The notes under the pieces were generated by a model. It was not told the origin of the DNA and made no database searches. It was given only the letters and a program-made list of their open reading frames with translations. From contig CAYRVC010000004.1 in assembly GCA_964427585.1 (NCBI GenBank), forward strand, positions 163 to 64,162: a stretch of 64,000 bases of DNA. The letters are read 5' to 3'. Below are positions 42,624-58,885 of this stretch, one piece after another; the stretch's first letter is position 1; every line of letters starts with the position of its first letter. The position numbers and the translations under genes are program-made. The DNA comes from an uncultured Candidatus Saccharibacteria bacterium. GTDB taxonomy: Bacteria > Patescibacteriota > Minisyncoccia > Minisyncoccales > Staskawiczbacteraceae.

Positions 42624-42632
42624 CATATATAA

Positions 42633-43823: not shown

Positions 43824-43827
43824 AAAA

Positions 43828-43858: not shown

Positions 43859-43864
43859 TTTGGG

Positions 43865-46011: not shown

Positions 46012-47751
46012 ATGGAGTTCAAGAGTGTTTGGCAATTTGAGGCAGTTATCATGCAATTCACTTTAAACAGGAAAAGTTTTTTATTTTTTTTGGTTTTTAC
46101 AGTATCGTTCTCTTATTTGTTTTTAAATTTTGACATCCCAAACTTCGTAAAATTCGCCATGACTAAAATAACGGCCGAAGAGGCGGTTTTTTATGTCAGC
46201 CCCGGCGGAAGCGATTCCAATCCGGGAACTTCGGCAAAGCCGTTGAAAACAATCCAGAAAGCCGTGGATTTAGCCCAGCCCGGCGGAACTGTTTATTTAA
46301 TGCCCGGAAATTATTTCCAGGATTTGGTTTCTGCCAGGAACGGCCTGGTTTCAGCTCCCATAAAAATAACGGGTCCCGCTGATGCCGTAGTGAAAGGAGG
46401 AGGAAACGGCAGGGTAGCGCAGATAAGCCACGATTATATCGTGTTGTCAGGTTTTACAATAGACGGATTGCACGGCGATTCTGGCAAAGTGGAAGGCTAT
46501 AGGGATATGCTGGTATATGTTATGGGAACCGGGAACAAAGACGGAGTTAAAGGTTTTAAAATTTTGGGAATGAATATCAAAAACGCCCGGGGCGAATGCG
46601 TAAGGATGAAATATTTTTCTCATGACAACGAAATCGCCAATAATACGATACAAAACTGCGGAATCCAGGATTTCAGGTTTAATGGCGGCGGAAAAAACGG
46701 AGAAGGCATTTATATCGGCACGGCCCCCGAGCAATTATACAAGAATCCCACCCAGGACCTGGACGGCTCGAACAACAATTATATCCACCACAACGTCATT
46801 GAAACCAACGGCAACGAAGGAATAGACATCAAGGAAGGATCGAGCGGGAATATAATCGAGTACAATAAAATCAGCGGCCAGAAAGACCCTGAATCGGGCG
46901 GATTGGATTCTCGCGGGGATGGGAACATATTCAGGTATAATGAAGTTTCCAATTCCGCTGGCGCTGGCATAAGGTTTGGCGGAGACGTATATAAGGGCGT
47001 GGCTTACGGAAAAAACAACCAGGCCTACGGAAACAAAATTGTAAATAACAAATACGGACCTTTCAAGGTGCAGATTCTGCCCCAGGGAAAAATATGCGGC
47101 AATATCCTGCAGGGCAACGGAGATGATTACGGCAATTACGGTTCAAAAATAGATTTCACTTCTTCATGCGGCGGCGCGGCAGATCAAAACCCGCCTGTTT
47201 CCAATAATACTGATTCTGGCATTCTGGTTGACAGCAATAGCCACGCTGTTCCTCAATATAGCCAGATTCCTTTGACTGAGACAAATGCCAGCGCTTCTTA
47301 TTTGGTATGTTCGGGTTCCTCGTGCTCTGAAAAAGGCTTTGAGATTGTTCAGCGGCTTTTAGTGAAAGGAATAAATTCCAGCAGTTTTGACAACAGGGGT
47401 CCTGGATATGTTTGCAGTAACACCTTGGACGGAAGCCTGGATACCAGATGGTCGGCTTTCGGCTCTGGAGAATGGGTTGAGTATGACCTGGGGGACTTTA
47501 AAACGGTTGCTTTCCTTAAAATCGCTTTCCACAGGGGAGACCAGAGGCAGGGTAAATTTTATGTGGATGTTTCCGCCAACGGAAAAGACTGGACAAGGGC
47601 TTATATAGGGCAAAGCAAAGGCGACACTCTTTCATTGGCGAAATTCGATTTTACCGATATTTCGGCAAGATATGTCAGGGTAGTGGGAGAGGGCAATACT
47701 GAAAACCTGTGGAACAGTTTGACCGAAGTGCAGGTTTTCGGATTTAATTAA
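46012..47751 (+). CDS. secreted right-handed beta-helix (pectate-lyase-fold/DUF1565-like) protein with C-terminal F5/8 type C (discoidin) domain
   Basis: Signal/TM segment. FYVSPGGSDSNPGTSAKPLKTIQKAVDLAQPGGTVYLMPGNY, PbH1-like repeats (NGNEGIDIKEGSSGNIIEYNKISG), and C-terminal NTLDGSLDTRWSAFGSGEWVEYDLG...ARYVRVVGEGN. Confidence 0.8.
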   Translation: MEFKSVWQFEAVIMQFTLNRKSFLFFLVFTVSFSYLFLNFDIPNFVKFAMTKITAEEAVFYVSPGGSDSNPGTSAKPLKTIQKAVDLAQPGGTVYLMPGNYFQDLVSARNGLVSAPIKITGPADAVVKGGGNGRVAQISHDYIVLSGFTIDGLHGDSGKVEGYRDMLVYVMGTGNKDGVKGFKILGMNIKNARGECVRMKYFSHDNEIANNTIQNCGIQDFRFNGGGKNGEGIYIGTAPEQLYKNPTQDLDGSNNNYIHHNVIETNGNEGIDIKEGSSGNIIEYNKISGQKDPESGGLDSRGDGNIFRYNEVSNSAGAGIRFGGDVYKGVAYGKNNQAYGNKIVNNKYGPFKVQILPQGKICGNILQGNGDDYGNYGSKIDFTSSCGGAADQNPPVSNNTDSGILVDSNSHAVPQYSQIPLTETNASASYLVCSGSSCSEKGFEIVQRLLVKGINSSSFDNRGPGYVCSNTLDGSLDTRWSAFGSGEWVEYDLGDFKTVAFLKIAFHRGDQRQGKFYVDVSANGKDWTRAYIGQSKGDTLSLAKFDFTDISARYVRVVGEGNTENLWNSLTEVQVFGFN

Positions 47752-47769
47752 AGAATAACCGGGAAACTA

Positions 47770-47802
47770 AAAAACCCTTCGCATAAATGCGAAGGGTTTT
47801 TT
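47770..47802 (+). terminator. rho-independent terminator
   Basis: aaaaacccttcgca-taaa-tgcgaagggttttt. Confidence 0.75.
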
Positions 47803-47868
47803 AGTTTTCATTATTTATTAATTATAGTTTGGGTATCTTAAAATATAATTATAAATAATTTTTATCAC

Positions 47869-48402
47869 ATGGTGAAAAAAAATTTGTTTCCATTGGTGTC
47901 TCTTAATTTTTTTACAAAGAACAGGGACAATCTGAAAAAAATCGTCCTTGTGGGCGGGGCTTTCGATATTGTGCATATAGGCCACGTAAATCATTTGAAA
48001 AAAGCCAAATCAATGGGGGACACTTTGGTTGTGCACATTACAAGCGACAAAAGGGTGAGGGAGAAGAAAGGACCTGGCAGGCCGATATTTTCAGTAAGGC
48101 AGAGGGCTTTGCTGGTTTCTTCCATAAGGTTTGTTGACTATGTATTCATATATAATGGCAGGCATTACGACCCCCAGGTCATTAAAAAAATAAGGCCGGA
48201 TATTATTTTTTTCAACAGAGAGGCTTACAGCGGGGAAATCGGGGAGGAAGTAAAAAAAATTGAAGGATTCAATGGCAGGGTGGTTGTAAGCAGGGAAAAA
48301 AAGATGAACAGCACCACTAAAATAGTTGAAACTATAAAGAACGGAAACGGCGAAACGCCGCATTTGGAAACAAACCATGACAAAGAAAATTTTAAAAATT
48401 AA
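47869..48402 (+). CDS. cytidylyltransferase-fold nucleotidyltransferase (RfaE domain II / TagD-like)
   Basis: KIVLVGGAFDIVHIGHVNHLKKAKSMGDTLVVHITSD (HxGH motif). Confidence 0.85.
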   Translation: MVKKNLFPLVSLNFFTKNRDNLKKIVLVGGAFDIVHIGHVNHLKKAKSMGDTLVVHITSDKRVREKKGPGRPIFSVRQRALLVSSIRFVDYVFIYNGRHYDPQVIKKIRPDIIFFNREAYSGEIGEEVKKIEGFNGRVVVSREKKMNSTTKIVETIKNGNGETPHLETNHDKENFKN

Positions 48403-49345
48403 AAAAATAAGCTATGGTAGGGTCGGGCTTCTGGGGAATCCCTCAGACCATTACGGCGGAAAATGCCTTAGCTTTACTTTTGACAAAAAAGCTGAAGTCA
48501 CCGTGCGTAACAGCTCAGAACTGGTTATTGAAGGTGGTAAAAAACGCGACCTGGATTTAAGCTACAACGGATCAAATGATTTGATTAAAGCGGTAATTAA
48601 AAATTTAAAATTAGAAAATAATAAATTTAAAATAACATATAAATCACAAATTCCTTTGGCCTCCGGCCTGGCGGGAAGTTCCGCCATTTCCGTGGCGGCG
48701 ATCAGGGCATTAAACGAATATTTTAATTTAAACCTAAATTCGTTTGAAATTGCTGAAAAATCCCGCATGGTTGAAATAGAAGAGCTCGGCAATTCTCTGG
48801 GTTTTCAGGACGGATATTCAACAGCTTTCGGTGGAGTTTTATTTATGGATTTTAAAAGTAAAACGGGCCATGGGAAATATTTTAAAAGCAGTTACGGCGT
48901 TGTTAAAAGAATTCCAATAAAAAGGATACCATGTTTTTTATGCTTATCTGGAGCGGTTAAAAAAAATTCCGGCGCCGTGCACGACTATGCAAAAGCAAAA
49001 TTTTTAAACGGAAATAAAAAAGAAAAAATGGAAATTAAAAATTATATGGGCAGCATCGCCGATTTGGCAGAACAGGGAATCAAGGCACTTGCTTTAAGGG
49101 ACTGGAAAAAGTTGGGATTTTTGATGAATAAAAATAGGGAACTGCGGGACCAGATTTATCCGGCCTTAGAAGAAGACAAAAAAGTCATTGAAACGGCGCT
49201 CGGCAGCGGGGCTTTGGGGGTGAAATTAACGGGAAGCGGCGGAGCAATCGCGGTTTTAACCGACGAACATGATTCAAAAAAAGTTTTCGAAAAAATGACA
49301 AAAAATTATTTCTGCTTCAAACCCAAAATTTCCAGTTATAATTGA
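48377..49345 (+). CDS. GHMP-family sugar kinase
   Basis: GHMP motif IPLASGLAGSSAISVAAIRAL and C-terminal GVKLTGSGGAIAVL. Overlaps the upstream gene by 26 nt. Confidence 0.8.
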   Translation: MTKKILKIKKISYGRVGLLGNPSDHYGGKCLSFTFDKKAEVTVRNSSELVIEGGKKRDLDLSYNGSNDLIKAVIKNLKLENNKFKITYKSQIPLASGLAGSSAISVAAIRALNEYFNLNLNSFEIAEKSRMVEIEELGNSLGFQDGYSTAFGGVLFMDFKSKTGHGKYFKSSYGVVKRIPIKRIPCFLCLSGAVKKNSGAVHDYAKAKFLNGNKKEKMEIKNYMGSIADLAEQGIKALALRDWKKLGFLMNKNRELRDQIYPALEEDKKVIETALGSGALGVKLTGSGGAIAVLTDEHDSKKVFEKMTKNYFCFKPKISSYN

Positions 49346-49433
49346 CACGCTGATATTGTTTTTTATTATAAATGTGTTATAAATATAAGAAAGCTCATTA
49401 AAAATTTATTGACTCCAGAAAAAGGAGGGAAAC

Positions 49434-50213
49434 GTGTCAAGAATAAAACTAATTTTAAGCGACATCGACGGATGTTTGTGCGGGGATATTTTTGATCTGG
49501 ATCAGCTGCGGATTATCAGGAATTATTGCCAAAAAGTTCAGCAAGATAAAAATCTCGCTCGCCTTTCTTTCGTGACGGGCAGGGGCGGGGAATACGTTGA
49601 CTGTTTGGTCAGGGTTCTTAATGCTTTTACGCCGGAGAATTTTCCATGCATTGTTGAAAACGGATCTTTTTTATTTAAACCAAGGGGCAGGATTTATATT
49701 CCCCATTATGCTCTTTCAGGCAAAGAAGAATTAATTTCCCGGGCGCGGGAGATGGTTGTCCCTTTGGTAAAAAAGGGCAGGGCCAGGTTCATAGAAGGAA
49801 AATCGGCAAGTATTTCTCTTATGCCCGTAAAACCGGATGCTACAACGGAAAAACTGGCGAAAGAAATAATTGCTTTGTTCCAAAGAGATTTTCTAAAAAA
49901 ATTATTTATTGCCTTTTCCACTACCGCGGTGGACATAACCGTGGCGGGCATAGATAAAGGATCATGCCTGAAGTTTTTGTGCAAAAAAGAAAGGATTTTA
50001 ATTGACGAAGTTTTGGCAATAGGAGATTCACAAGGAGACATTCCTATTTTAAAAATAGCCGGGGCGCCAACATGCCCGGCAAACGCAACAGAAGAAGTAA
50101 AACACCTGGTTAGAAAAAGAAACGGCTATGTGGCGAAAAATTCTTTTGCTTTCGGCGTTGTGGAAATACTTTTAAAGCATGATTTTGTGAAACCCGAAGG
50201 GAGGACGAGATGA
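49434..50213 (+). CDS. HAD-IIB-type sugar phosphatase
   Basis: GTG start. Motif I LILSDIDGCL and motif IV AIGDSQGDIPILK. Confidence 0.7.
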   Translation: MSRIKLILSDIDGCLCGDIFDLDQLRIIRNYCQKVQQDKNLARLSFVTGRGGEYVDCLVRVLNAFTPENFPCIVENGSFLFKPRGRIYIPHYALSGKEELISRAREMVVPLVKKGRARFIEGKSASISLMPVKPDATTEKLAKEIIALFQRDFLKKLFIAFSTTAVDITVAGIDKGSCLKFLCKKERILIDEVLAIGDSQGDIPILKIAGAPTCPANATEEVKHLVRKRNGYVAKNSFAFGVVEILLKHDFVKPEGRTR

Positions 50214-50647
50214 AATACGGATTGTCTGTCTGCGCCATTACGAAAAAATACGACCTTATTTTGATGAAGCAATCAAAATATGGAAATGATCTTGAATTTC
50301 CAGCAGGAGTTTTCGATACCAGCAATGAAAGTGAAATAAAATTTATGGCGAAGAGCTTGGTTGAGAACACGGGCTACAAAACTGATCAGGTTAAGGTTTA
50401 TAAACCAAGCTATTTCATGCCAATATACGCGCTGGCGGAGTTTTCCGCCGTGGCGGTTGGGTGTGAATTTATCTGTCAAAAATTAGATGACCCGGAGCGG
50501 GGGATAAAAGTGGTTGAGATGCCCCAGGAGGAATTCTTCCGCCTTATTCTGGACGGAACAATTATTTCAGCTTCCACGAAAATCACCGCGTTTATGGCGC
50601 TTGCCCACGCTGATATTTCTTTAAAACACTTGATTTCTTTTCCATAA
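50210..50647 (+). CDS. hypothetical protein, degenerate Nudix-like fold (weak)
   Basis: 4-nt overlap with the upstream gene. LEFPAGVFDTSNESEIKFMAKSLVENTGY loosely resembles a Nudix box lacking the REUxEE core. Confidence 0.4.
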   Translation: MKYGLSVCAITKKYDLILMKQSKYGNDLEFPAGVFDTSNESEIKFMAKSLVENTGYKTDQVKVYKPSYFMPIYALAEFSAVAVGCEFICQKLDDPERGIKVVEMPQEEFFRLILDGTIISASTKITAFMALAHADISLKHLISFP

Positions 50648-50863
50648 CCAAAACAATAATTACGCAAAAAACAGGCCGCTTTTCAAGATAAAAGAGGCTT
50701 TTTTTTGCCAAAATTTGTCAAGAAACAGGGAAAAATAAAAATTAATAAAATTTTAATTAACATAATTTTAACCAACGATTATTTAATATGAAGCCAGCAC
50801 ATTCAAGGAACACAAAACTTTTCTGCAATCTTTTCTGAAGTCTTTTCTCAAAGGGAGAAAGTT

Positions 50864-51814
50864 ATGAAAGTGGCGGTAATTGGCAGTGGAGTCGTAGGTC
50901 AGGCAACGGGCAAAGGTTTTGCCACGCAGGGCCACGAGGTGGTTTTTTCAGACGTCAGCTTGGAAATTCTGGTGAAATTGAGGAAAGACGGATTCCAAAC
51001 CTGTTTTCCGGAATTCCTTTCAGAGAAAGGAGAACAATACGATGTTTTCTTTTTATCGGTCTGCACGCCCACGGTGGCTGGCAGGATATTTTTAAACCAT
51101 TTGAAAGACGCAACGGAGGAACTGGGGCAGGGAGCCCTGCGAAAAAACGACAGGTATTGCGTGGTAAGCCCCAGGTCCACGCTTCCGCCGGGCACCACCG
51201 AGGATTTCTTAATTCCCATCCTGGAAAAGAATTCAGGAAAAAAAGCCGGCCGAGACTTCGGCGTGTGTTTTAACCCGGAGTATCTTCGGGAAAAAACAGC
51301 CGGAGAAGATTTCCGGCATCCCTGGCTCGTGGTCATAGGCGAGTTGGACCAAAGGTCAGGCAAGGTTCTGGAAGAACTTTACGACTGGGTCGAGTGTCCG
51401 GTTGAACATACGTCTTTGGCGGAAGCCGAAGCCGAAAAGTATGTTCATAACGTTTTCAACGCGGCCAAGATCGCGTTTTTCAATGAGATGAGGCAAGCCC
51501 TGCAAAAGCGGGGCGGCATGGACGTGAACAAAGTTTTCCGGCTGGTGGCCAGGAGCGCGGAAGGATGCTGGAACCCGATGTACGGCCTGAAGGATTTCGG
51601 TCCGTTTGACGGCAGTTGTCTGCCCAAAGACACAATGGCGTTTCTCACATGGGCGGAGGAAGAATTGGAGATGGATCTTCCTATTCTGAGGACCACGATA
51701 GAAGAAAACCGGGCGTTGAGTCAAAGGATTGCCAGCAAAAAAGGCAATGGAAAATGCAACGGAAGGCCGTTGGCCAGGGTGGCGCAGGAACTGGCATCGG
51801 CGCCGACCGTTTGA
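50864..51814 (+). CDS. UDP-glucose/GDP-mannose dehydrogenase family protein (short; C-terminal nucleotide-sugar domain apparently absent)
   Basis: MKVAVIGSGVVGQATGKGF (Rossmann), NPEYLREKTAGEDFRHP, and the catalytic-Cys region GSCLPKDT. The gene is visibly more G+C-rich than its flanks, with many long spurious ORFs in other frames. Confidence 0.7.
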   Translation: MKVAVIGSGVVGQATGKGFATQGHEVVFSDVSLEILVKLRKDGFQTCFPEFLSEKGEQYDVFFLSVCTPTVAGRIFLNHLKDATEELGQGALRKNDRYCVVSPRSTLPPGTTEDFLIPILEKNSGKKAGRDFGVCFNPEYLREKTAGEDFRHPWLVVIGELDQRSGKVLEELYDWVECPVEHTSLAEAEAEKYVHNVFNAAKIAFFNEMRQALQKRGGMDVNKVFRLVARSAEGCWNPMYGLKDFGPFDGSCLPKDTMAFLTWAEEELEMDLPILRTTIEENRALSQRIASKKGNGKCNGRPLARVAQELASAPTV

Positions 51815-51844
51815 GTCGGAAAAGGAGGTGTTCTAAAAGGCAAT

Positions 51845-51930
51845 AGAAAGAGATGGCCCGCTAAAAAAAAGCATCATCCCCTTGAGGACGATGTGCTCCT
51901 GCGGGCTATCTCTTTCTCTTTTTTCTTTTT
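51845..51930 (+). terminator. long hairpin plus T-runs after the dehydrogenase gene
   Basis: agaaagagatggcccgc (51845-61) pairs with gcgggctatctctttct (51901-17) with 1 mismatch, followed by cttttttctttttt. Confidence 0.55.
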
Positions 51931-51951
51931 TAAAAAATAAATATTCTAAAA

Positions 51952-54606
51952 ATGACTGACTTAAATTCAATAATAAATTATCTTCCGGTGGCGCTGCTTT
52001 ATTTTCCTTTGGGGATGATAGGCATTACCCGCTGGGTAATTTGGCTTATAAAAAAAACAGCTTCTTTCTATTACAAACCAATAAGAGGAAGAGGCGGCAA
52101 TTTCACTTTTTCCGTTATTACCGCCGTATATAATGAAAAGCCCAGGATATTTGAAAAAGCCATATATTCCTGGAGGCGCAATTCTCCAGATGAAATAATC
52201 GCTGTCATAGATTATACAGATAAGGTGAATATTGCAATATTCAAGGAATTTTCGAAAACTTTTAAAAACACGGTGCTGGTGGTTACCAAGACCCCCGGCA
52301 AAAGGCCGGCGCTGGCTGAAGGCATAAAAATTTCAAAATGCGACATTCTGGCTTTGACCGACAGCGACACGATTTGGGATGACGATTTGCGAGAAGCAGT
52401 AATTTCTCCGTTTTCAGACCCCATGGTCGGCGGAGTGGCAACCAGGCAGGAGGTTTTATTTCCCAAAACAGTCGCCCAGAAATTATTTAACATCCATTTG
52501 AGCAACCGGTATTTCAACGAATTCCCGTTTCTTGCCGCAACCGGAAACGCTCTGACCTGCCTTTCGGGAAGGACGGCAGTTTACCGAAGGAAGGCAATCA
52601 TCGGCGTTGTTGAAGAAATGGTCAATGAAAAGTTTTTGGGCGATTATTGCATAAGCGGGGAAGACAAATCCCTTACGGGCCTGGTGCAGAAACACGGATG
52701 GAAAACCAAATATTTGATGGATATTGCCGTAAAAACTTCCGGAGAGCCGGATTTGCCCACGTTTTTCAAACAGCAGATAAGATGGGCGAGAAACAGCTGG
52801 AGGGCCGACTTGAAATACCTTTTCAGCTTTTGGATCTGGCGCAGGGAAAAAATATTGGCTCTTTATATAATAGACCGCTTTATTCAGCCTTTTGTGCTAT
52901 TTTTCGGCCCTATGTATTTCCTTTTGGCTATATTTTTAGAGCATTGGGCGGCGGTTATAGCAATATTCGCTTTTTGGATATTCAGCCGGGCGGTCAAAAC
53001 CTTCCCCCATTTAAGGCGCCATCCCGTTGATATTGCCATTTTGCCCATTTATGTTTTTTTCACCTATCTTATGGCTTTCATAAAAATATACGCTCTTTTT
53101 ACGCTGAGAGACCAGGGGTGGATTACCCGCTGGGATAAAAAACGCTTCAAACGTTCAGGCAGATTGAGCTCGGCTTTGGGGTATGCGGCGACCTTGCTGA
53201 CTGTTGTTTTGATAGGAACGGCGGTGGCTGGCTACAGCAGGCAGGAATTTGTGGCAGGCGTTTCCCAAAGCGGGATATTTGCCAAAAATAGCGAAAAAAA
53301 TATTCCGATAAAATCGGTTAATGAAGAAAAAAAAATATCCGAGGCTGAGCTGGCCATCCACAGAAACAATATTTTAGCAAACATAGCCGGCAGCAGCCAG
53401 GGTTTTTATGTGATAAAAAAGGGGGATACATTTTGGGATATTGCCAAAAAATACAACAGCGACGTAGGCGAGATTATAAAAGCCAATAAAAATAGGATTC
53501 AAAATCCCAATTTGATTTCGGCCGGCCAGCAAATAGTGGTTCCTGTTTCAGAGCTTTCAAAAACTCCGGAAAAATATGTTTCGCTCAAGGCTACATTAAT
53601 AGAATACGACAAGGCTGAAAATATTATCAGCATAAAGGGCGGATCGATAACCATTCCTGTTATTTATGAATTGTTAAAGCAGGAAGAAGTTGTCGTTCCC
53701 CTTGGAGAAAAGCAGTGGCTGTTGAAAGCCAATATTTCAATATCCAAAGGGGCGGGCCTTGTTATTGATGAAAATATTTCCTGGCTGAAGCTTAAAAGCG
53801 ACAAAACAGGATTTGTTTACATAAAAGCCGAAAATGGAAACATAGGCATTCGCAATACAAAAATAACATCATGGGACGAGTCACTAAAAGAGCCTGACAG
53901 GAATTACTCTGACGGCAGAAGCTTTATATTATCAAAAAACAACGGCAGAATGGATGTGATAAATTCCGAAGTGGCGTATTTGGGCTACAATTCGAACAGC
54001 AAGGAGCTGGCCGGGGAATACGGATTAAGCTGGAAAATTTCCGGCGACAAATTAAAAGATAATTTGATAGCAGGCGCCATTTTGAACAGCAAATCGCACG
54101 ATAATTATTACGGGGCTTATATATACGGCGCCACGGGCATTATTGCTGAAAAAAACGAATTTTACAATAACATAGAATATGGGATTTCTTTCTTCGGCGA
54201 ATCCAATAATTCAACCGTAATGAACAATTATGTTTACTATAACGGCAGACACGGGGTCATTTTAAGCGGAGGGTCTTTCAATAATATTGTTTCTGAAAAT
54301 TACATAGTGGGAAACAAAATCAACGGCCTGGCTGTTTACCAGGAATCAAACAACAACCTGATAAGCCTGAACATCATACATCAGAATACGGACGGGGTGG
54401 CAGTGACGGAATCCTCCAATAATCTTTTTGAGAATAACGCGATAAAAAACAACAGCAGGGGTTTGCGCATAGGAGCTGGCTCTTTTGGCAATTATTTTAA
54501 AGACAACGACATATCTGAAAATAAAAACAGCCTGTTTTCCGATCCTAAAAGCAGTGATAACTTCATTGTTGAAAAGGACGTGGCGAAGGGCGGCTTAAAC
54601 ATTTAA
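51952..54606 (+). CDS. fusion protein: processive family-2 glycosyltransferase (synthase type) + TM region + LysM + C-terminal parallel beta-helix (PbH1) domain
   Basis: 884 aa. Has GT2 motifs (FSVITAVYNEK, LALTDSDTIWDDD), Q-x-x-RW as QQIRWARNSW (~52771-52785), multiple TMs, LysM YVIKKGDTFWDIAKKYNSDVGEIIKANKNRIQNPNLISAGQQIVVP (~53407-53544), and beta-helix repeats (NNYVYYNGRHGVILSGGSFNNIVSENYIVGNKINGLAVY...). Confidence 0.85.
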   Translation: MTDLNSIINYLPVALLYFPLGMIGITRWVIWLIKKTASFYYKPIRGRGGNFTFSVITAVYNEKPRIFEKAIYSWRRNSPDEIIAVIDYTDKVNIAIFKEFSKTFKNTVLVVTKTPGKRPALAEGIKISKCDILALTDSDTIWDDDLREAVISPFSDPMVGGVATRQEVLFPKTVAQKLFNIHLSNRYFNEFPFLAATGNALTCLSGRTAVYRRKAIIGVVEEMVNEKFLGDYCISGEDKSLTGLVQKHGWKTKYLMDIAVKTSGEPDLPTFFKQQIRWARNSWRADLKYLFSFWIWRREKILALYIIDRFIQPFVLFFGPMYFLLAIFLEHWAAVIAIFAFWIFSRAVKTFPHLRRHPVDIAILPIYVFFTYLMAFIKIYALFTLRDQGWITRWDKKRFKRSGRLSSALGYAATLLTVVLIGTAVAGYSRQEFVAGVSQSGIFAKNSEKNIPIKSVNEEKKISEAELAIHRNNILANIAGSSQGFYVIKKGDTFWDIAKKYNSDVGEIIKANKNRIQNPNLISAGQQIVVPVSELSKTPEKYVSLKATLIEYDKAENIISIKGGSITIPVIYELLKQEEVVVPLGEKQWLLKANISISKGAGLVIDENISWLKLKSDKTGFVYIKAENGNIGIRNTKITSWDESLKEPDRNYSDGRSFILSKNNGRMDVINSEVAYLGYNSNSKELAGEYGLSWKISGDKLKDNLIAGAILNSKSHDNYYGAYIYGATGIIAEKNEFYNNIEYGISFFGESNNSTVMNNYVYYNGRHGVILSGGSFNNIVSENYIVGNKINGLAVYQESNNNLISLNIIHQNTDGVAVTESSNNLFENNAIKNNSRGLRIGAGSFGNYFKDNDISENKNSLFSDPKSSDNFIVEKDVAKGGLNI

Positions 54607-54672
54607 ATAAAATTTAAACAGTTAGCGCGAAATTCAACGGCTCTGCCCTTGATATAAGCGGTAATCAAAAAC

Positions 54673-56502
54673 ATGAGGATCAAGTCATTCATAATCTTAA
54701 CCGCGGCTTTTGGAATTTTATCCCTTTTCGGGGCAGGCGGGGCTTTTGCCGCCCCTTGCGCTTCTTCAAACATAAGATGGGCCAATTCAAGCAACACGGT
54801 TTATATTTCGGGGGGAGTTGCATGCTCTTTGGGCGATATAAAATCTTTGGGGTCAAAATACATTCCATTAACCCTTGTAGATTCAGCTAATAAAGTTTGG
54901 TTCTTAGGAGCGAATATAATTTTGCAGAACGGAGCTGTTTTAACTCTTTACGGAGACGAGGCCGGGGGCGATGTCAATGAATTAAGGCTAAAAAGCAACA
55001 ATAATTCTTTAAGCGATTATGTTAGAATTTCGGGAAGCTGGGGCAATATTGACATAAGAAACACAAAAATAACCTCGTGGGACGAAGCGGTAGCAGGTCC
55101 CGACACTGATTACAGCAACGGAAGGGCACACATAAATGTAAGGTCTTTTTTGGCGAGCGACGGCTCGACTCCATTGGAGTCACGCATGGATATAAAAGAC
55201 AGCGAGGTCGGCTATCTTGGATTTTATAAAGCTGAATCCTACGGCTTAAGTTGGAAAGTGGCAACAAAAAAATTAAGCGTTTTTGACCAGGTAGGAGTTT
55301 ACGGAGATGTCATAAACAATAAAATCCACGATAATTTTTTCGGCATTTATGCTTACGGCGGCCAGGGAATGAATTTTACCGGCAATGAAGTATATGATAA
55401 TATATGGTACGGCATGGACCCTCATGATGATTCAGATTACCTGGTTATAGACAACAATTACGTGCACCACAACGGAAAACACGGCATCATATGCTCTAAA
55501 AGATGCGATAACATAACCGTTGTAAATAATATTTCTTCTTACAATGAGGGGGTTGGCATATTTATCCACCGGTTGGTGAATGATTCTTTGATAGAAAATA
55601 ACGAAGCATATTATAACGCAGATGCCGGGATAGCTTTGTTTGACAGTTATAATAATCGGATTAGCGATAATATTTCAAAGTTTAACAAAATAGGATTAAG
55701 ATTATCCGTGGGGAGCTCCAATAATATTGTTGAAAACAACGAACTTTCCCAAAATTTGCAATATGGAATATTCACATTCAAAGGCACCGATACTCCGCTG
55801 GGAAGCGCCGACGGAATTGTCAAGTCAAATACTTTCAAGAATAATATCATGAGCAAAAACGTAAATGCCGGCATAAGGTTTAAGGAGGGCAATTTTAATT
55901 TGTTTGAAAACAATACCATAGATAACAGCTATTACAGCATTTATACCCACGACACCAGTGAAAATATTTTTATTAAAAATACGGTTTTTGACAATGTGAG
56001 AAATTATTATTTTGAAAGGGTTGATTCCCAAAATATGGTTAAAGATACCCCCGGCTTTTCATTCAAGCTGTATGACAGCTTAAGCGATATGATGGTAGTC
56101 AACAGCCAAAATCGCCTTTTGTGGAACAGCAAAGGCCTGGCAACTGATTTTGTTTCGGGCGAATCGTCTGTTTATGTAAATAAAACTAAAGCAGGCTCAT
56201 CAGTGGTAAACGTTTCTGAAACGAACTTGATAATAAATCCCTCTTCAGGCCAGCTGTCCGCTGTCAGAAGCGTATGGAATTTAACCGGGGATTTCAGAAA
56301 AAAATGGACGGAAAAAGTAATAGTGTCTCCGCCAGCAGCCGACCATGTTGTGGGCGACTTAAATCCTGGATCTTCATACAGGGCGCTGGCCAACGGAGTT
56401 TTGCTGGGAACTTACAGCGCGAATTTGAACGGGGAAATATCATTCACTTACGCAAGTTACGGCTCTGCGGGAACCCAGGTCATATTCGAAGTAAAACAAT
56501 AA
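54673..56502 (+). CDS. secreted parallel beta-helix protein, mannuronan/uronan C5-epimerase-like (AlgG/AlgE-type motif)
   Basis: Signal peptide MRIKSFIILTAAFGILSLFGAGGAFA. NIWYGMDPHDDSDYLVIDNNYVHHNGKHGIICS carries the YG.DPH[DE] motif (DPHD codons ~55417-55428). The N-terminal region is paralogous to the beta-helix part of 51952-54606 (IRNTKITSWDE...PD.xYSxGR). Confidence 0.7.
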   Translation: MRIKSFIILTAAFGILSLFGAGGAFAAPCASSNIRWANSSNTVYISGGVACSLGDIKSLGSKYIPLTLVDSANKVWFLGANIILQNGAVLTLYGDEAGGDVNELRLKSNNNSLSDYVRISGSWGNIDIRNTKITSWDEAVAGPDTDYSNGRAHINVRSFLASDGSTPLESRMDIKDSEVGYLGFYKAESYGLSWKVATKKLSVFDQVGVYGDVINNKIHDNFFGIYAYGGQGMNFTGNEVYDNIWYGMDPHDDSDYLVIDNNYVHHNGKHGIICSKRCDNITVVNNISSYNEGVGIFIHRLVNDSLIENNEAYYNADAGIALFDSYNNRISDNISKFNKIGLRLSVGSSNNIVENNELSQNLQYGIFTFKGTDTPLGSADGIVKSNTFKNNIMSKNVNAGIRFKEGNFNLFENNTIDNSYYSIYTHDTSENIFIKNTVFDNVRNYYFERVDSQNMVKDTPGFSFKLYDSLSDMMVVNSQNRLLWNSKGLATDFVSGESSVYVNKTKAGSSVVNVSETNLIINPSSGQLSAVRSVWNLTGDFRKKWTEKVIVSPPAADHVVGDLNPGSSYRALANGVLLGTYSANLNGEISFTYASYGSAGTQVIFEVKQ

Positions 56503-56593: not shown

Positions 56594-57271
56594 ATGAAAA
56601 TATTAATTATTGAAGACCAGGAAAATTTAGCCAAACTCTTGAAGAAAGGGTTTGAAAAAGAGGGATACGCGGTGGATTACCTTACGGACGGGGAATCCGG
56701 CCAGAAAAGAATAGAAATCCATTATGAAGATTATGATATAATAATACTGGACTTGATGTTGCCTAAAAAAAGCGGATTTGAAATATGCGGGGAAGTCAGG
56801 AAGCTGAACATCAATACCCCGATACTTATTTTAACGGCAAAAGACTCAGAAGAAGACAAAGTCTCCCTGCTTGATACGGGAGCTGACGACTATTTGGTAA
56901 AACCGTTCAGTTTTTCAGAGCTTCTTGCAAGGGTGAGGGCGCTTGTCAGAAGGCCGAAAATAATGTTGCCTACGGATTTGTCTTTTGGGGGGCTGGTTTT
57001 AAAGCCCGCCACCAAAGCTGTTTTTATGGATGAGAAAGAAATAAAGCTTACCCTCACCGAATTCCGCATTCTGGAATATTTCATGAGAAATCCGGACAGG
57101 GTTTTAGAAAGGGAGGCGATAGCCAACAATATCTGGGATTTTAATTTCGATTCTTTCAGCAATATTATCGACGTATATATAAACAGGCTGAGAAAAAAAA
57201 TCAGCAGGGCTAGCAATAGGAATCTGCTGAAAACAGTGCGGGGAATAGGATATAAAATAACTTCGGCATAA
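56594..57271 (+). CDS. OmpR/PhoB-family response regulator
   Basis: MKILIIEDQENLAKLLKKGFEKEGYAVD...IILDLMLPKKSGFE...LTAKD, plus winged-helix LTLTEFRILEYFMRNPDRVLERE...VRGIGYKI. Confidence 0.95.
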   Translation: MKILIIEDQENLAKLLKKGFEKEGYAVDYLTDGESGQKRIEIHYEDYDIIILDLMLPKKSGFEICGEVRKLNINTPILILTAKDSEEDKVSLLDTGADDYLVKPFSFSELLARVRALVRRPKIMLPTDLSFGGLVLKPATKAVFMDEKEIKLTLTEFRILEYFMRNPDRVLEREAIANNIWDFNFDSFSNIIDVYINRLRKKISRASNRNLLKTVRGIGYKITSA

Positions 57272-57286
57272 AAATAACCAGGCAGG

Positions 57287-58885
57287 TTATTTTTTATTCT
57301 GGGTTTTCACCACCATTCCGGATTTGGGCAATGCCAGGCAAATGGTAGTGCCTTTTTTGTTTTTAGGTTCATGCCAGATCCTTCCTCCAATTTGCTCAAC
57401 AAGGGATTTTACCAAATAAAGACCCAATCCCGTTCCTCCTTCTTTTGAATTTTTTACATTGTCTGCCCGGAACATTTTTTCAAAAATAAAAGGTTGCTGG
57501 TGTCTTGGTACGCCCCAGCCGGTATCGGAAATTTTAATTAAGATTTCTTTTTTTTCTTCGTTTGCTTTAACGCTGATAGCCCCTCCTTTTTCTGTATATT
57601 TGATAGCGTTGGAAAAAATATTTTCCAATATGATTTCCATTATTTTAGGGTCAATTTTTAAAGCAGGAAGATCTTTTTGTATGTTTTTTTTCAATTGCAG
57701 ACCCTTATTTTTAATCTGAGGCATGATTTTGTTTATATTTTCTTCAATGATTTTATTCATGGCCAGCATCTGAGGCGAAATTTCAAAAGTTCCAAGCTCC
57801 ATCCGGGAGACATTTAAGAACAATCCGACAAGGTCGGTCATATTCTTAACGCTTCCCCTTATCATTTTCAAGTATTCCTTGGAATTTTTATGTATTTTAT
57901 CCGACAATTCCCTGGACATCATTTCGGCGGCCAGGCCGATGGAGGATATCGGAGTCTTGAGCTGATGGGCGGCAAAAGAAATAAATTCTTTTTTCGCCGT
58001 ATCCAGTTTTTTATTTTCCGTAATATCCCTTTCTATCACCACGAATGACAAAATTCTCCCTTTGTTGTTTAAAACCGGGGCTATGTGCACTTCAGCCGTA
58101 AAATTTTCCCCGTTTTTTTTCTTGTCTTGCAACTCTCCGAGAAAGGGCTTTTTGCTGAAATATATCGTTCTCCACATTACGCTGAAAAATCCGGCCGGCT
58201 TGTTCATTTTCCAGAATGAAGGTTTTTTCCCGATCATTTCCTTGGGGGAATAGCCCATTATTTCTTTAACCACTTTATTTATGTATATTATTTTTCCCTC
58301 CGGGTCGATTATCAAAATAATATCGGAGGCGTTTTCAACCGCTTGCTGTATTATTTTCAGTTCATTGGCAAGGTCCTCTGTTTTTTTATTTTCTTTGGTT
58401 ATTCGAGACAAAAGCTGTTCCCTTTCAGCCTCGCCTTTTTTGATTTTAGTTATATCCCTGGCAATGTGGATTGAGCCTATTATCTGATTTTCCTTGTTTT
58501 TCATCGGGGTGGTGGTTATCAAAAAATCGGCAGGAGGATTATTTTGATGCACTTGCGAGGTATGCTCTTTTCCGTCTGAAAGGGTAAGCTTGTGCGGGCA
58601 AAGAAGCGGCGCAGAGCATAATCCATGCATGGATTCATGGCAGGTGAGGCCAACGCAGTCTTCCGGTTTTTTTCCTAATTTATTCGCGAGCGCCTTGTTC
58701 ACCCAGGATACTTTGAAATTTTTATCTATAATAGCCATCAGGTCGGGAACCGTGTTGAAGATAAGCTCCCATTCATTTTCAATACGGATGAATTGGTCTT
58801 TTATTTGTTTATGCCCTGTTTCAAAATCAGCAACTTCCAATTGCTTTTGGATCAGCTCAATTTTTTTACTTTTTCCGTTTTCCAT
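57287..58885 (-). CDS. cytoplasmic PAS-domain sensor histidine kinase
   Basis: Two PAS-like segments, H-box FISFAAHQLKTPISSI, N/G boxes (NAIKYTEKGG, DTGWGVP, GGTGLGLYLVKSLV). No TM segments. Confidence 0.9.
   Translation of the reverse strand: MENGKSKKIELIQKQLEVADFETGHKQIKDQFIRIENEWELIFNTVPDLMAIIDKNFKVSWVNKALANKLGKKPEDCVGLTCHESMHGLCSAPLLCPHKLTLSDGKEHTSQVHQNNPPADFLITTTPMKNKENQIIGSIHIARDITKIKKGEAEREQLLSRITKENKKTEDLANELKIIQQAVENASDIILIIDPEGKIIYINKVVKEIMGYSPKEMIGKKPSFWKMNKPAGFFSVMWRTIYFSKKPFLGELQDKKKNGENFTAEVHIAPVLNNKGRILSFVVIERDITENKKLDTAKKEFISFAAHQLKTPISSIGLAAEMMSRELSDKIHKNSKEYLKMIRGSVKNMTDLVGLFLNVSRMELGTFEISPQMLAMNKIIEENINKIMPQIKNKGLQLKKNIQKDLPALKIDPKIMEIILENIFSNAIKYTEKGGAISVKANEEKKEILIKISDTGWGVPRHQQPFIFEKMFRADNVKNSKEGGTGLGLYLVKSLVEQIGGRIWHEPKNKKGTTICLALPKSGMVVKTQNKK

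What the first reader, a model, noticed from the sequence alone, without database searches (positions are those of the whole stretch)
50864..56502. Alginate-like (uronan) exopolysaccharide module: sugar dehydrogenase + GT2 synthase-LysM-beta-helix fusion + DPHD-motif C5-epimerase-like protein
The locus has three consecutive genes. (i) A UDP-glucose/GDP-mannose dehydrogenase family enzyme, which makes a nucleotide-uronic acid. (ii) An 884-aa fusion of a processive GT2 synthase (D,D,D and QQIRW motifs, multi-TM) with a LysM domain and a C-terminal parallel beta-helix. (iii) A secreted beta-helix paralogue carrying WYGMDPHDDS. The YG(F/I)DPH(D/E) / DPHD motif is the catalytic signature of the mannuronan C5-epimerases AlgE and AlgG. 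The fused beta-helix has YGISFFGES at the equivalent place, so it has lost the catalytic residues and may act as a non-catalytic polymer-binding or guide domain. Dehydrogenase + GT2 polymerase + C5-epimerase is the logic of alginate biosynthesis. That would be unexpected in a reduced-genome bacterium, and I do not recognise the synthase-LysM-beta-helix fusion architecture as described.
Basis: partly seen in the sequence, partly recalled or inferred. Interest (0 to 1): 0.65.

Follow-up and report, generated by a model that had tools for sequence, protein, structure and literature searches.

The report
Alginate-like synthase–epimerase module in CPR bacteria
An ultra-small (Patescibacteria) bacterium carries a compact gene set that most likely makes an alginate-like acidic sugar polymer. 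One membrane protein both builds the chain and carries an epimerase-like domain outside the cell, an arrangement that is common in this bacterial group but that I could not find described anywhere.

Summary
In detail: three co-directional genes sit at exactly the stated coordinates with the stated motifs.

- **Organism:** the window comes from a Candidatus Staskawiczbacteria MAG (Patescibacteria/CPR).
- **Gene 1:** a two-domain dehydrogenase that scores AlgD (GDP-mannose 6-dehydrogenase) best. All catalytic residues are invariant. It has the size and layout of the biochemically active short GMDs of brown algae.
- **Gene 2:** a hyaluronan-synthase-fold GT2 + TM channel + LysM + AlgG-like β-helix.
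- **Gene 3:** a secreted AlgG-like β-helix with Tyr, DPHD and a basic residue intact.

The synthase–helix fusion is a large CPR family. In about 80% of members the fused helix has an intact YGxDPHDDSNN motif, so the norm is a synthase fused to an apparently competent epimerase domain. The window's copy has lost the His and the basic residue. As in other such loci, it is accompanied by an old free paralogue with the motif intact (Fisher p = 5e-9).

The short dehydrogenase is adjacent in 54 of 60 locus groups, and a lyase-like gene in 50 of 60. The window has one at 46012-47751, with an alginate-lyase-type CBM32.

The polymer's chemistry is inferred, not shown. Verdict: a real, uncharacterised new variant of alginate-type biosynthesis.

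The parts
46012..47751 (+). Candidate polyuronate lyase or binding protein: Pel9A/DUF1565-like right-handed β-helix plus a C-terminal CBM32 (F5/8 type C) domain.
   Evidence: Pfam gives F5_F8_type_C at 8e-16, DUF1565 at 2e-7 and Pel9A-like at 7e-7. The CBM32 is closest to alginate-lyase CBM32 modules: AlyQ 7d29 at 8e-28 and AlyB 5zu5 at 4e-21. It belongs to a companion-gene cluster found in 28 of 60 locus groups. Lyase activity is inferred.
47762..47809 (+). Terminator-like hairpin (20-bp stem) after the β-helix/CBM32 gene.
   Evidence: This is a consensus scan only.
47869..48402 (+). Cytidylyltransferase-superfamily nucleotidyltransferase (RfaE domain II-like). Possible sugar-1-phosphate activation.
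   Evidence: TIGR02199 at 1e-31. It is 35% identical over 94 aa to the N-terminal half of a nucleotidyltransferase-phosphomannomutase-like fusion that directly follows the synthase in L035 and L014. Membership of the module is tentative.
48377..49345 (+). GHMP-family sugar or small-molecule kinase.
   Evidence: GHMP_kinases_N at 4e-17 and GHMP_kinases_C at 2e-11. No specific NCBIfam equivalog was reached. It is conserved only in the sister locus L087. Tentative.
49434..50213 (+). HAD-IIB hydrolase or phosphomutase-like protein.
   Evidence: Hydrolase_3 at 1.5e-16 and TIGR01484 at 3e-19. It is only 24% identical to the PMM-like HAD of the L035 fusion. Tentative.
50210..50647 (+). Small protein with faint Nudix/NudE-like similarity.
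   Evidence: NudE at 0.002 and Nudt16-like at 0.06, both below cut-off. Function is open.
50864..51814 (+). Short (two-domain) NDP-sugar 6-dehydrogenase, most likely a GDP-mannose 6-dehydrogenase. Key motifs: GSGVVG 7-12, NPEYLRE 137-143, K192, N196, C252-LPKD.
   Evidence: AlgD is the best solved relative by sequence, profile and fold. All top-120 homologues are 284-345 aa. The catalytic residues are invariant. The layout equals the active 315/320-aa brown-algal GMDs (PMC4782291).
51952..54606 (+). Processive GT2 synthase-translocase fused to LysM and an AlgG-like β-helix.
   Evidence: The AF2 model has pLDDT 89.8. The hyaluronan-synthase fold is the best match for residues 1-440 or so, and AlgG for residues 549-880 or so.
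52111..52980 (+). GT2 catalytic domain (residues 54-343) with DSD 137-139, GEDK 236-239 and QQIRW 274-278.
   Evidence: These residues are invariant in the family alignments A1 and A3.
53164..53232 (+). Last transmembrane helix (residues 405-427). It is preceded by the K/R-rich loop RWDKKRFKRSGR, which places the C-terminal part outside the cell.
   Evidence: Hydropathy scan. The AF2 model has a long helix at 404-443 followed by a disordered linker at 438-459. The topology is inferred from the positive-inside rule.
53407..53544 (+). LysM domain (residues 486-531).
   Evidence: PF01476 at 2e-14, above cut-off. Detectable in most family members by phmmer.
53596..54591 (+). Fused AlgG-like β-helix with a degenerate active site: YGISFFGES (nt 54178-54204) replaces YGxDPHDDS, and HGVILSGGS (nt 54250-54276) replaces HGIIxS[KR]RC.
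   Evidence: The Tyr is kept. The Asp, His, Asp and basic residue are lost. The helix-to-GT2 identity ratio is 0.81, against 0.98 in intact relatives.
54673..56502 (+). Secreted free AlgG-like β-helix, the candidate polyuronate C5-epimerase. It has WYGMDPHDDS (nt 55405-55434) and HGIICSKRC (nt 55480-55506), plus a C-terminal region of about 160 aa with no family match.
   Evidence: It belongs to an orthologous group at 52-56% identity over the full length across loci.

Best explanation
This is a compact, monoderm-style version of alginate-type exopolysaccharide biosynthesis, typical of Patescibacteria. The proposed steps are:

1. **In the cytoplasm**, the short two-domain dehydrogenase oxidises an NDP-hexose at C6, most likely GDP-mannose to GDP-mannuronate.
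2. **In the membrane**, the GT2 domain polymerises the uronate and threads the chain through its own transmembrane channel, as hyaluronan and cellulose synthases do.
3. **Outside the cell**, the last TM helix leads via a flexible linker to a LysM domain and a β-helix homologous to the mannuronan C5-epimerase AlgG. LysM probably holds this part on the peptidoglycan.
4. **In most relatives**, the fused helix has the full Tyr/DPHD/basic-residue catalytic set and would epimerise the chain as it emerges.
5. **In this window**, the fused helix has lost the base and the charge neutraliser. It most likely only binds or guides the chain, while the separately secreted paralogue with an intact site does the epimerisation.
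6. **Upstream**, the β-helix protein with an alginate-lyase-type CBM32 most likely trims, releases or recycles the polymer.

Shown: homologies, architecture, residue states, co-occurrence statistics and predicted folds. Inferred: substrate identity, activities, topology and the division of labour between the two helices.
For: - **Dehydrogenase:** AlgD is the best solved relative for the single sequence (1e-42), the family profile (223 bits against 192 for the best UGDH) and the predicted fold. It shares the stretches SGKKAGxDFGV and VIGELDxxSG with AlgD. GxGxxG, NPExLRE, K192, N196 and C252LPKD are invariant in 31 diverse members. The two-domain form is a family of roughly 100 representatives at 50% identity. 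Active Saccharina GMDs are 315/320 aa with GxGxVG and GGxCLPKDV at matching positions. They carry the same Val and the same Pro 5 residues before the Cys that separate them from long bacterial GMDs (PMC4782291). The best bacterial hit of brown-algal GMD is reported to be a CPR protein (PMC11468063).
- **Helices:** AlgG scores 1e-45 with the family profile, with DPHD aligned on DPHD. The literature roles of Tyr, His and Arg come from PMC4444821 and PMC8824271. In 95-97 of 120 relatives the fused helix has YG[ILF]DPHDDSNN and HGIIxS[KR]RC.
- **Complementarity:** among 75 synthase clusters at 90% identity, a free DPHD helix is present in 3 of 62 with a canonical fused motif and in 11 of 13 without one (Fisher p = 5e-9; p = 1e-4 at 70% dereplication).
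- **Context:** the short dehydrogenase is adjacent in 54 of 60 locus groups, and at least one lyase-like gene in 50 of 60. One such companion is a full-length PF08787 alginate lyase at 1e-44. The window's CBM32 matches alginate-lyase CBM32s at 8e-28.
- **L093:** a 43%-identical free-helix homologue sits in a cluster with ManC, a PL5 lyase, a PilZ+HlyD protein and a GT2.
- **Model of the fusion:** pLDDT 89.8, with HAS and AlgG as top folds.
Against: - No biochemical data exist for any member.
- The GT2 is closest to hyaluronan synthases and NodC, which use UDP-sugars. No Alg8 reference was available to test against.
- Similarity to the GT2 of the alginate-like cluster L093 is only 25%.
- An archaeal UDP-glucose dehydrogenase scores only about 30 bits below AlgD, so donor specificity is not settled.
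- No GDP-mannose pathway gene (ManA/B/C) was seen in the parts of the window that were profile-searched.
- LysM domains bind GlcNAc-containing glycans, which would also fit a GlcNAc-containing product.
- AlgG-family active sites can also catalyse β-elimination (PMC8824271).
- The co-occurrence test is not phylogenetically corrected.
- Six 'non-canonical' fused helices keep the His (D[FYHS]HD) and may still be active.
Confidence: 0.62

Rival explanations
1. The polymer is a glucuronate-containing glycan made from UDP-sugars, either hyaluronan/heparosan-like or β-glucuronan. The dehydrogenase is a UDP-glucose 6-dehydrogenase (hasB-like logic). The β-helices convert GlcA to IdoA or otherwise modify that chain. 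LysM binds the GlcNAc-containing product.
For: - The GT2 is closest to class I hyaluronan synthases by sequence (1e-15; profile 5e-23) and by fold (TMt 0.58-0.67), and to NodC (4e-27).
- JGI labels many members 'hyaluronan synthase'.
- The motif G(E/D)DK-LT resembles the HAS/NodC/chitin-synthase signature (recalled knowledge).
- A UGDH scores close behind AlgD.
- A LysM domain is present.
- PL7 also contains glucuronan lyases (recalled knowledge of CAZy).
Against: - Every accessory line points to alginate-type enzymes: AlgD ranks first in three kinds of search, the helices are AlgG-like, and sister loci carry PF08787 alginate lyase.
- The window's CBM32 is of the alginate-lyase type.
- The non-CPR relative cluster holds a ManC.
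- Known short two-domain enzymes of this layout are GDP-mannose dehydrogenases (PMC4782291).
- No Alg8 structure appeared among the solved-structure matches, so 'HAS-like' may only be the nearest available template.
- No β-helix GlcA C5-epimerase is known to me (recalled knowledge).
Confidence: 0.2
2. The DPHD β-helices act mainly as polyuronate lyases (chain-length control or release), not as epimerases. The product is then an unepimerised homopolymer.
For: - Epimerase and lyase share one mechanism and one active site in this family, and AlgE7 does both (PMC8824271).
- Ten of 60 locus groups show no separate lyase-like gene, although most of those have short flanks.
Against: - The residue before the catalytic Tyr is W in the window's free helix and E or Q in 87 of 97 intact fused helices. 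It is not the Arg that confers lyase activity in AlgE7 (PMC8824271).
- Most loci carry a dedicated lyase-like gene: PL7, PL9-like or BNR.
- A lyase fused permanently at the exit of its own synthase would cut every nascent chain.
Confidence: 0.1
3. The cluster is decaying or non-functional in this genome. On this view the truncated dehydrogenase and the dead helix are pseudogene-like remnants.
For: - The C-terminal domain of the dehydrogenase is absent.
- The catalytic motif of the fused helix is destroyed.
- The helix evolves faster than the GT2 domain (ratio 0.81).
Against: - All ORFs are intact.
- The short dehydrogenase is a conserved family with invariant catalytic residues, and it folds confidently (pLDDT 86).
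- The dead helix keeps a confident β-helix fold and 44% identity to intact helices.
- A free intact paralogue is present, as in other such loci.
Confidence: 0.04

Closest known systems
Pseudomonas/Azotobacter alginate system (AlgD, Alg8, Alg44, AlgG, AlgL, AlgK/E, AlgI/J/F/X)
   Same: The same logic applies: an NDP-sugar 6-dehydrogenase closest to AlgD, a membrane GT2 synthase, an AlgG-homologous β-helix with Tyr/DPHD/basic residue, and associated lyases. As in AlgG, the helix seems to have a role beyond catalysis. AlgG is an integral part of the polymerisation/export complex (PMC4444821).
   Different: - The dehydrogenase lacks the C-terminal nucleotide-binding domain.
- The synthase, a wall-binding LysM and the helix are one polypeptide.
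- The window has no Alg44-type PilZ/MFP partner, no outer-membrane AlgK/AlgE and no acetylation genes.
- The lyases are PL7, PL9-like or BNR-like, not PL5.
- The GT2 is not shown to be an Alg8 orthologue.
- The host is a monoderm-type CPR bacterium.
Short GDP-mannose 6-dehydrogenases of brown algae (Ectocarpus GMD, Saccharina SjGMD1/2)
   Same: The length matches (315-320 aa against 316 aa). The GxGxVG and G-x-C-LPKD motifs sit at matching positions. They share the Val in GxGVVG and the Pro five residues before the catalytic Cys. The algal enzymes are biochemically active on GDP-mannose (PMC4782291). Their best bacterial hit is reported to be a CPR protein (PMC11468063).
   Different: I could not obtain an algal sequence, so direct identity to the window protein was not measured. 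The algal enzymes are eukaryotic and are not clustered with a synthase.
Class I hyaluronan synthase with hasB (Chlorella virus HAS, Xenopus HAS1, streptococcal has operon)
   Same: It is the best solved match in both sequence and fold for the GT2 + TM part. A single protein polymerises and translocates. A 6-dehydrogenase gene lies next to the synthase, as in hasA-hasB.
   Different: HAS has no extracellular LysM or β-helix extension. HasB is a three-domain UDP-glucose dehydrogenase. No epimerase or alginate-lyase-type partners occur in has operons.
Alginate-like cluster in a non-CPR MAG (L093, GCA_030685065.1)
   Same: It holds two free AlgG-like helices, one 43% identical to the window's. It also has a GT2 whose alignment to the window's runs through the C-terminal TM region, a dehydrogenase and a lyase.
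   Different: L093 has a three-domain dehydrogenase, a ManC, a PilZ+HlyD (Alg44-like) protein and a PL5 lyase. Its GT2 is separate from the helices. It is itself uncharacterised.
Secreted AlgE-type epimerases (AlgE1-7)
   Same: They share the YG(F/I)DPH(D/E) catalytic motif on a right-handed β-helix, and they are secreted enzymes acting on the finished polymer.
   Different: AlgE enzymes are Ca-dependent and carry R-modules. They match far more weakly than AlgG does (6e-8 against 9e-20).

Membership tests
AlgG-type mannuronan C5-epimerase (free helix, 54673-56502) | Right-handed parallel β-helix homologous to AlgG | tested here: met
   AlgG 4nk6 at 9e-20 over 242 residues. NF038177 at 3e-31.
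AlgG-type mannuronan C5-epimerase (free helix, 54673-56502) | Catalytic set: Tyr, the His of DPHD as base, and a basic residue neutralising the carboxylate | tested here: met
   W-Y246-G-M-D-P-H-D and HGIICS-K-R align on AlgG's YGIDPHD and HGIIIS-R. Roles are from PMC4444821 and PMC8824271. Lys stands in place of Arg at the aligned column, with an Arg next to it.
AlgG-type mannuronan C5-epimerase (free helix, 54673-56502) | Reaches the curated equivalog score of NCBIfam NF038177 | tested here: not met
   108.7 bits against a cut-off of 700. It is a distant homologue, not an AlgG orthologue.
AlgG-type mannuronan C5-epimerase (free helix, 54673-56502) | Converts β-D-mannuronate to α-L-guluronate in the polymer | not testable with these tools
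   Needs an enzyme assay.
AlgG-type mannuronan C5-epimerase (fused helix, residues 549-880 of the synthase) | β-helix homologous to AlgG | tested here: met
   AlgG 4nk8 at 3e-21. Foldseek gives AlgG at TMt 0.64-0.65 and rmsd of about 4 Å.
AlgG-type mannuronan C5-epimerase (fused helix, residues 549-880 of the synthase) | DPHD His base and neutralising basic residue | tested here: not met
   It has YGISFFGES and HGVILSGGS at the aligned columns. It is therefore not filed as an epimerase. In 97 of 121 family members these residues are present.
GDP-mannose 6-dehydrogenase (UDPG/GMD dehydrogenase family) | N-terminal NAD-binding Rossmann domain with GxGxxG, plus the central helical domain | tested here: met
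   PF03721 at 2e-28 and PF00984 at 3e-16. AF2 model with pLDDT 86 and AlgD as the top fold match.
GDP-mannose 6-dehydrogenase (UDPG/GMD dehydrogenase family) | Catalytic Cys nucleophile with the Lys/Asn/Glu/Asp set | tested here: met
   C252, K192, N196, E139/E143 and D256 are invariant in A2 and align with the AlgD motifs.
GDP-mannose 6-dehydrogenase (UDPG/GMD dehydrogenase family) | C-terminal nucleotide-sugar-binding domain (PF03720), as in bacterial AlgD | tested here: not met
   It is absent in the window and in all 120 top homologues. This is the state of the active brown-algal short GMDs (315/320 aa, PMC4782291), so it excludes 'AlgD orthologue' but not 'GMD'.
GDP-mannose 6-dehydrogenase (UDPG/GMD dehydrogenase family) | Specificity for GDP-mannose rather than UDP-glucose | tested here: inconclusive
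   AlgD scores best (223 against 192 bits), and the algal-type Val and Pro are shared. No assay or phylogeny with algal sequences was possible.
Alginate synthase Alg8/Alg44 type | GT2 orthologous to Alg8 | not testable with these tools
   No Alg8 model hit in NCBIfam for either the window GT2 or the L093 GT2. No Alg8 chain appeared among the PDB hits. Identity to the L093 GT2 is 25%.
Alginate synthase Alg8/Alg44 type | PilZ + membrane-fusion co-polymerase (Alg44) partner | tested here: not met
   None was found among the window genes that were profile-searched, 28590-33427, 34264-35049 and 37911-56502. An HlyD-like gene occurs in the sister locus L010, and PilZ+HlyD in L093.
Class I hyaluronan synthase | GT2 + TM channel fold with D, DxD, G(E/D)D and QxxRW | tested here: met
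   HAS at 2e-15 for the single sequence and 5e-23 for the profile over residues 48-400. It is the top fold match.
Class I hyaluronan synthase | Alternating UDP-GlcNAc/UDP-GlcA polymerisation | not testable with these tools
   Needs biochemistry. The accessory genes argue against it.
LysM | Pfam PF01476 match above the gathering score | tested here: met
   53.6 bits against a cut-off of 20.9, at residues 486-531. The AF2 model shows the βααβ pattern.

The most novel reading that the evidence does not exclude
The CPR module is the closest living relative, and perhaps the donor lineage, of the brown-algal alginate pathway. The short GMD is the shared marker. The HAS-fold GT2 that is invariably linked to it in CPR bacteria would then define the class of the still unidentified, non-Alg8 mannuronan synthase of brown algae. 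A profile of this GT2 would pick out the algal enzyme.
Probability: 0.12. Interest if true: 0.85.

Novelty: new variant of a known kind. Interest (0 to 1): 0.62.

Why it matters
Alginate production has been shown experimentally only in Pseudomonas, Azotobacter and brown algae (PMC4444821). If the reading here is right, four things follow.

- **Distribution:** a large part of the uncultivated Patescibacteria would make an alginate-like polyuronate. That is relevant to how these ultra-small episymbionts attach to hosts and build biofilms.
- **Machinery:** they would do so with a minimal machine in which polymerase, translocase, wall anchor and epimerase are one polypeptide. This gives a natural, tractable model for coupling between polymerisation and modification. 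It is also a possible tool for making tailored alginates.
- **Natural experiment:** the window's dead fused helix plus a live free paralogue separates the structural role of an AlgG-type domain from its catalytic role.
- **Algal pathway:** the short dehydrogenase ties the module to the brown-algal pathway, whose mannuronan synthase is still unknown (PMC11468063). The linked CPR GT2 is a concrete new query for that search.

Tried and rejected
- **Truncation artefact or pseudogene for the dehydrogenase: rejected.** All 120 best homologues are 284-345 aa, the catalytic residues are invariant and the fold is confident.
- **A split-off C-terminal domain encoded nearby: rejected.** The upstream 145-aa ORF has no PF03720 similarity, and the flanking genes differ between loci.
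- **NosD/copper-type or PL6/pectate-lyase identity for the DPHD helices: rejected.** AlgG matches are many orders of magnitude stronger, and no PL6 chain was hit.
- **Recent duplication as the origin of the free helix: rejected.** Free helices form their own orthologous group and are only 36-40% identical to fused ones.
- **Testing Alg8 membership: not possible.** There was no Alg8 model or structure to hit.
- **GTDB genome scan:** gave only one relative, because the peptide patterns were too specific. The metagenome scan with an alignment worked.
- **Obtaining a brown-algal GMD sequence:** all four routes failed. The Ectocarpus paper is not held. The supplements carry no sequences. The exhaustive representative search listed no member with the algal motif positions in its top 150. 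The cluster look-up returned no informative names.
- **Link between the window's HAD gene and the phosphomannomutase-like fusion of L035/L014:** weak at 24% identity, so kept only as a lead.
- **Promoter scan:** uninformative in this AT-rich DNA. Only the hairpin at 47762-47809 stands out.
- **Literature searches for a prior description of the CPR fusion:** found nothing relevant.

Full report
**1. Observation**

The three ORFs are present at the stated coordinates on the + strand: 50864-51814 (316 aa), 51952-54606 (884 aa) and 54673-56502 (609 aa). The gaps between them are 137 and 66 nt.

Pfam and NCBIfam results:
- Gene 1 has the N-terminal and central domains of the UDP-glucose/GDP-mannose dehydrogenase family. 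It lacks the C-terminal domain.
- Gene 2 has a GT2 domain (residues 54-343), a LysM domain (486-531) and a right-handed β-helix (about 549-880).
- Gene 3 has a β-helix behind an N-terminal signal-like hydrophobic segment.

HMMER aligns both helices on AlgG, so that YGMDPHD and YGISFFG fall on AlgG's YGIDPHD.

**2. Organism**

The dehydrogenase is 100% identical to a protein of a Candidatus Staskawiczbacteria MAG, on a contig of 64,839 bp. The window is therefore Patescibacteria/CPR. The genes immediately upstream are housekeeping: primase, sigma-70 and malic enzyme. Downstream is a two-component pair.

**3. The dehydrogenase**

AlgD, the GDP-mannose 6-dehydrogenase, is its best solved relative in three kinds of search:
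- single sequence: 1e-42, against 4e-35 for the best UDP-glucose enzyme;
- family profile: 223 against 192 bits;
- predicted fold: model pLDDT 86, pTM 0.82.

It shares with AlgD the stretches SGKKAGxDFGV and VIGELDxxSG.

The missing C-terminal domain is not an accident. All 120 best homologues are 284-345 aa with the same two domains. An exhaustive search finds on the order of a hundred 50%-identity representatives of this short form before three-domain enzymes appear. GxGxxG, NPExLRE, K192, N196 and C252-LPKD are invariant.

The decisive precedent is in the literature. The GDP-mannose dehydrogenases of Saccharina are 320 and 315 aa, with GxGxVG at 11-19 and GGxCLPKDV at 256-267, and they are active enzymes (PMC4782291). 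That paper lists a Val in the glycine motif and a Pro before the GGxC motif as differences from bacterial GMDs. The window protein has both (GSGVVG; P247 five residues before C252). The Pro is typical of the short family, whereas long forms have A, S or G there.

A 2024 survey reports that the best bacterial match of brown-algal GMD (40% identity) is a Candidatus Woesebacteriota protein (PMC11468063). I could not obtain an algal sequence to measure the identity myself.

Conclusion: this is a functional short NDP-sugar 6-dehydrogenase. GDP-mannose is the most likely substrate but is unproven.

**4. The synthase fusion**

The family is large. There are 534 proteins below 1e-5 in a capped search, with the top 120 at 40-55% identity over the full length. 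They are labelled Moranbacteria, Andersenbacteria, Peregrinibacteria, Nomurabacteria and others. A metagenome scan confirmed 246 relatives.

The GT2 + TM part is closest to class I hyaluronan synthases by sequence (2e-15; profile 5e-23 over residues 48-400) and by fold (TMt 0.58-0.67). Cellulose and chitin synthases score lower. NodC is the best NCBIfam match.

The AF2 model is confident per domain (pLDDT 89.8) but not in domain arrangement (pTM 0.54). It shows a long helix at 404-443, a disordered linker, a LysM βααβ unit and a regular β-helix. A K/R-rich loop (393-404) before the last hydrophobic helix (405-427) places LysM and the helix outside the cell by the positive-inside rule. This topology is inferred.

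LysM is detectable in most members.

**5. The two helices**

Literature:
- In AlgG, the His of DPHD abstracts H-5, Tyr314 positions the proton donor and an Arg neutralises the carboxylate.
- In AlgE, Y149, D152, H154 and D178 are catalytic.
- An Arg before Y149 switches AlgE7 towards lyase activity (PMC4444821, PMC8824271).

The free helix has W-Y-G-M-D-P-H-D and HGIICS-K-R, so the set is complete and no Arg precedes the Tyr. The fused helix has E-Y-G-I-S-F-F-G and HGVILS-G-G. The Tyr is kept, but the Asp, His, Asp and basic residue are lost.

This is not the family norm. Of 121 members, 97 have YG[ILF]D[PT]HDDSNN with HGIIxS[KR]RC. Six have D[FYHS]HD with the His kept, about five are truly degenerate, and 13 have a truncated helix. 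On a neighbour-joining tree of the GT2 domain, the degenerate and truncated forms are interspersed with intact ones near the window's branch, which suggests repeated decay. The tree is not robust.

Degenerate helices have diverged faster than their GT2 domains, with an identity ratio of 0.82 against 0.98. They are still about 47% identical to intact helices (44% for the window's copy) and fold confidently. That fits a retained non-catalytic role.

**6. Complementarity**

I classified 92 loci. After dereplication at 90% identity there were 75 synthase clusters:

| Fused helix motif | Free DPHD helix present | Total clusters |
|---|---|---|
| Canonical | 3 | 62 |
| Non-canonical or absent | 11 | 13 |

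This gives Fisher p = 5e-9, or p = 1e-4 after 70% dereplication. One further case has DTHD, with the His kept.

Free helices are an orthologous group of their own. They are 52-56% identical over 609 aa between loci but only 36-40% identical to fused helices. The free copy is therefore an old paralogue, and wherever it is present the fused domain is free to decay. The test is not phylogenetically corrected.

**7. Conserved neighbourhood**

Counts across 60 locus groups (80% identity):

| Neighbouring gene | Locus groups (of 60) |
|---|---|
| Short dehydrogenase adjacent | 54 |
| Pel9A/DUF1565-like β-helix | 28 |
| BNR-like protein | 16 |
| PF08787 alginate-lyase-fold protein | 13 |
| At least one of the three lyase-like genes | 50 |

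Most of the groups without a lyase-like gene have short flanks. One PF08787 companion scores 1e-44 over its full length.

The window's 46012-47751 protein belongs to the Pel9A-like cluster. Its CBM32 is closest to the CBM32 modules of the alginate lyases AlyQ (8e-28) and AlyB. The module therefore starts at 46012, not 50864.

Between that gene and the dehydrogenase lie four genes:
- an RfaE-domain-II-like nucleotidyltransferase;
- a GHMP kinase;
- a HAD-IIB protein;
- a faint Nudix-like ORF.

These are conserved only in the sister locus L087. In L035 and L014, the gene directly after the synthase is a nucleotidyltransferase fused to a HAD domain matching eukaryotic-type phosphomannomutase. The window's nucleotidyltransferase is 35% identical to its N-terminal half, but the HAD link is weak. 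A local sugar-activation route is plausible but not established.

**8. A non-CPR relative**

A 43%-identical homologue of the free helix lies in a 173-kb MAG contig labelled Pseudomonadota (L093). Its neighbours are a second AlgG-like helix, a separate GT2, a PF05426 (AlgL-type) lyase, a PilZ+HlyD protein with the Alg44 architecture, a three-domain dehydrogenase and a ManC mannose-1-phosphate guanylyltransferase.

That is a GDP-mannose-based, alginate-type gene set, and it links the CPR helix family to mannuronan chemistry. Its GT2 aligns with the window's at 25% identity through the C-terminal TM region. It has no significant PDB match itself. 'HAS-like' therefore does not decide the sugar.

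**9. Mechanism proposed**

The short GMD makes GDP-mannuronate. The GT2 polymerises and exports it through its own channel. The extracellular LysM/β-helix sits at the exit. In most CPR the helix epimerises the emerging chain. In this window it only binds or guides, and the secreted paralogue epimerises. The CBM32-bearing β-helix protein processes or releases the polymer.

Shown: homology, architecture, residue states, co-occurrence and predicted folds. Inferred: the substrates, all activities, the topology and the role of LysM.

**10. Known versus new**

The kind of system, alginate-type synthase-dependent polyuronate synthesis with C5-epimerisation, is known. What differs is the single-polypeptide synthase-LysM-epimerase, the short dehydrogenase in bacteria, the lyase repertoire and the CPR host.

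Four full-text searches found no description of this module. The only related remark is the Woesebacteriota hit of algal GMD (PMC11468063). Databases name the proteins generically or as 'hyaluronan synthase'.

I rate it a new variant of a known kind, with interest about 0.6. It is raised by the possible bearing on the unidentified brown-algal mannuronan synthase. It is lowered by the complete lack of biochemical evidence and by the unresolved donor sugar.

Noticed in passing
window 47869-50647: Four genes lie between the lyase-like gene and the dehydrogenase: an RfaE-domain-II-like nucleotidyltransferase, a GHMP kinase, a HAD-IIB protein and a faint Nudix-like ORF. Together they resemble an NDP-heptose or NDP-hexose activation route. 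The Andersenbacteria locus L005 has SIS_2/PfkB/HAD heptose-pathway-like genes near its synthase. L035 and L014 have a nucleotidyltransferase-phosphomannomutase-like fusion right after theirs.
   Followed up: partly
L040, L051/L052, L056: Two tandem synthase::epimerase genes, both with intact DPHD, flank a single short dehydrogenase gene.
   Followed up: no
L037 7099-7914 and homologues; L044 6390-6971; L005 11956-12531: In a Moranbacteria-like sub-clade (16 of 60 locus groups), a protein of about 270 aa sits immediately upstream of the synthase. It has a signal peptide, an FN3-like region and C-terminal TM segments. A sortase is nearby in 9 groups. Neither is present in the window.
   Followed up: no
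L003 10798-12105 and homologues: A BNR/sialidase-like β-propeller protein of about 435 aa overlaps or directly follows the synthase in 16 of 60 locus groups. Pfam matches are weak, and its role (lyase or hydrolase?) is unknown.
   Followed up: partly
L093 (GCA_030685065.1, 'Pseudomonadota' MAG) 1-13214: An uncharacterised non-CPR alginate-like cluster. It holds an AGE-family epimerase, a three-domain dehydrogenase, a PilZ+HlyD protein, a PL5 lyase, a GT2, two AlgG-like helices, a ManC and a CotH.
   Followed up: partly
L010 10571-11992: An HlyD-type membrane-fusion protein lies between the synthase and the free helix in a close relative of the window's locus. It recalls the periplasmic part of Alg44. 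No counterpart was found in the window.
   Followed up: no
window 54673-54828: NCBI's gene call for the free helix is 557 aa (P0241). The 609-aa ORF starts with a convincing signal-like segment, so the deposited start is probably too far downstream.
   Followed up: no
window 37911-39557; L092 4966-6663: A PMT_2 (protein mannosyltransferase-like) + TPR protein lies 6.5 kb upstream of the module in the window. A similar gene lies about 2 kb from the Daviesbacteria module.
   Followed up: no
window 56594-58885: An OmpR-type response regulator (+ strand) and a PAS-domain histidine kinase (- strand) directly follow the module. Homologous regulators occur near only 4 locus groups, so a regulatory link is uncertain.
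   Followed up: no
window 47762-47809: A perfect 20-bp-stem hairpin with a T-rich tail follows the β-helix/CBM32 gene. This suggests the gene is transcribed separately from the genes downstream.
   Followed up: no
window 56023-56502 (free helix residues 451-609): The C-terminal region of about 160 aa in the free helix has no Pfam match, yet it is conserved across the orthologous group. It may be a carbohydrate-binding or wall-binding domain.
   Followed up: no
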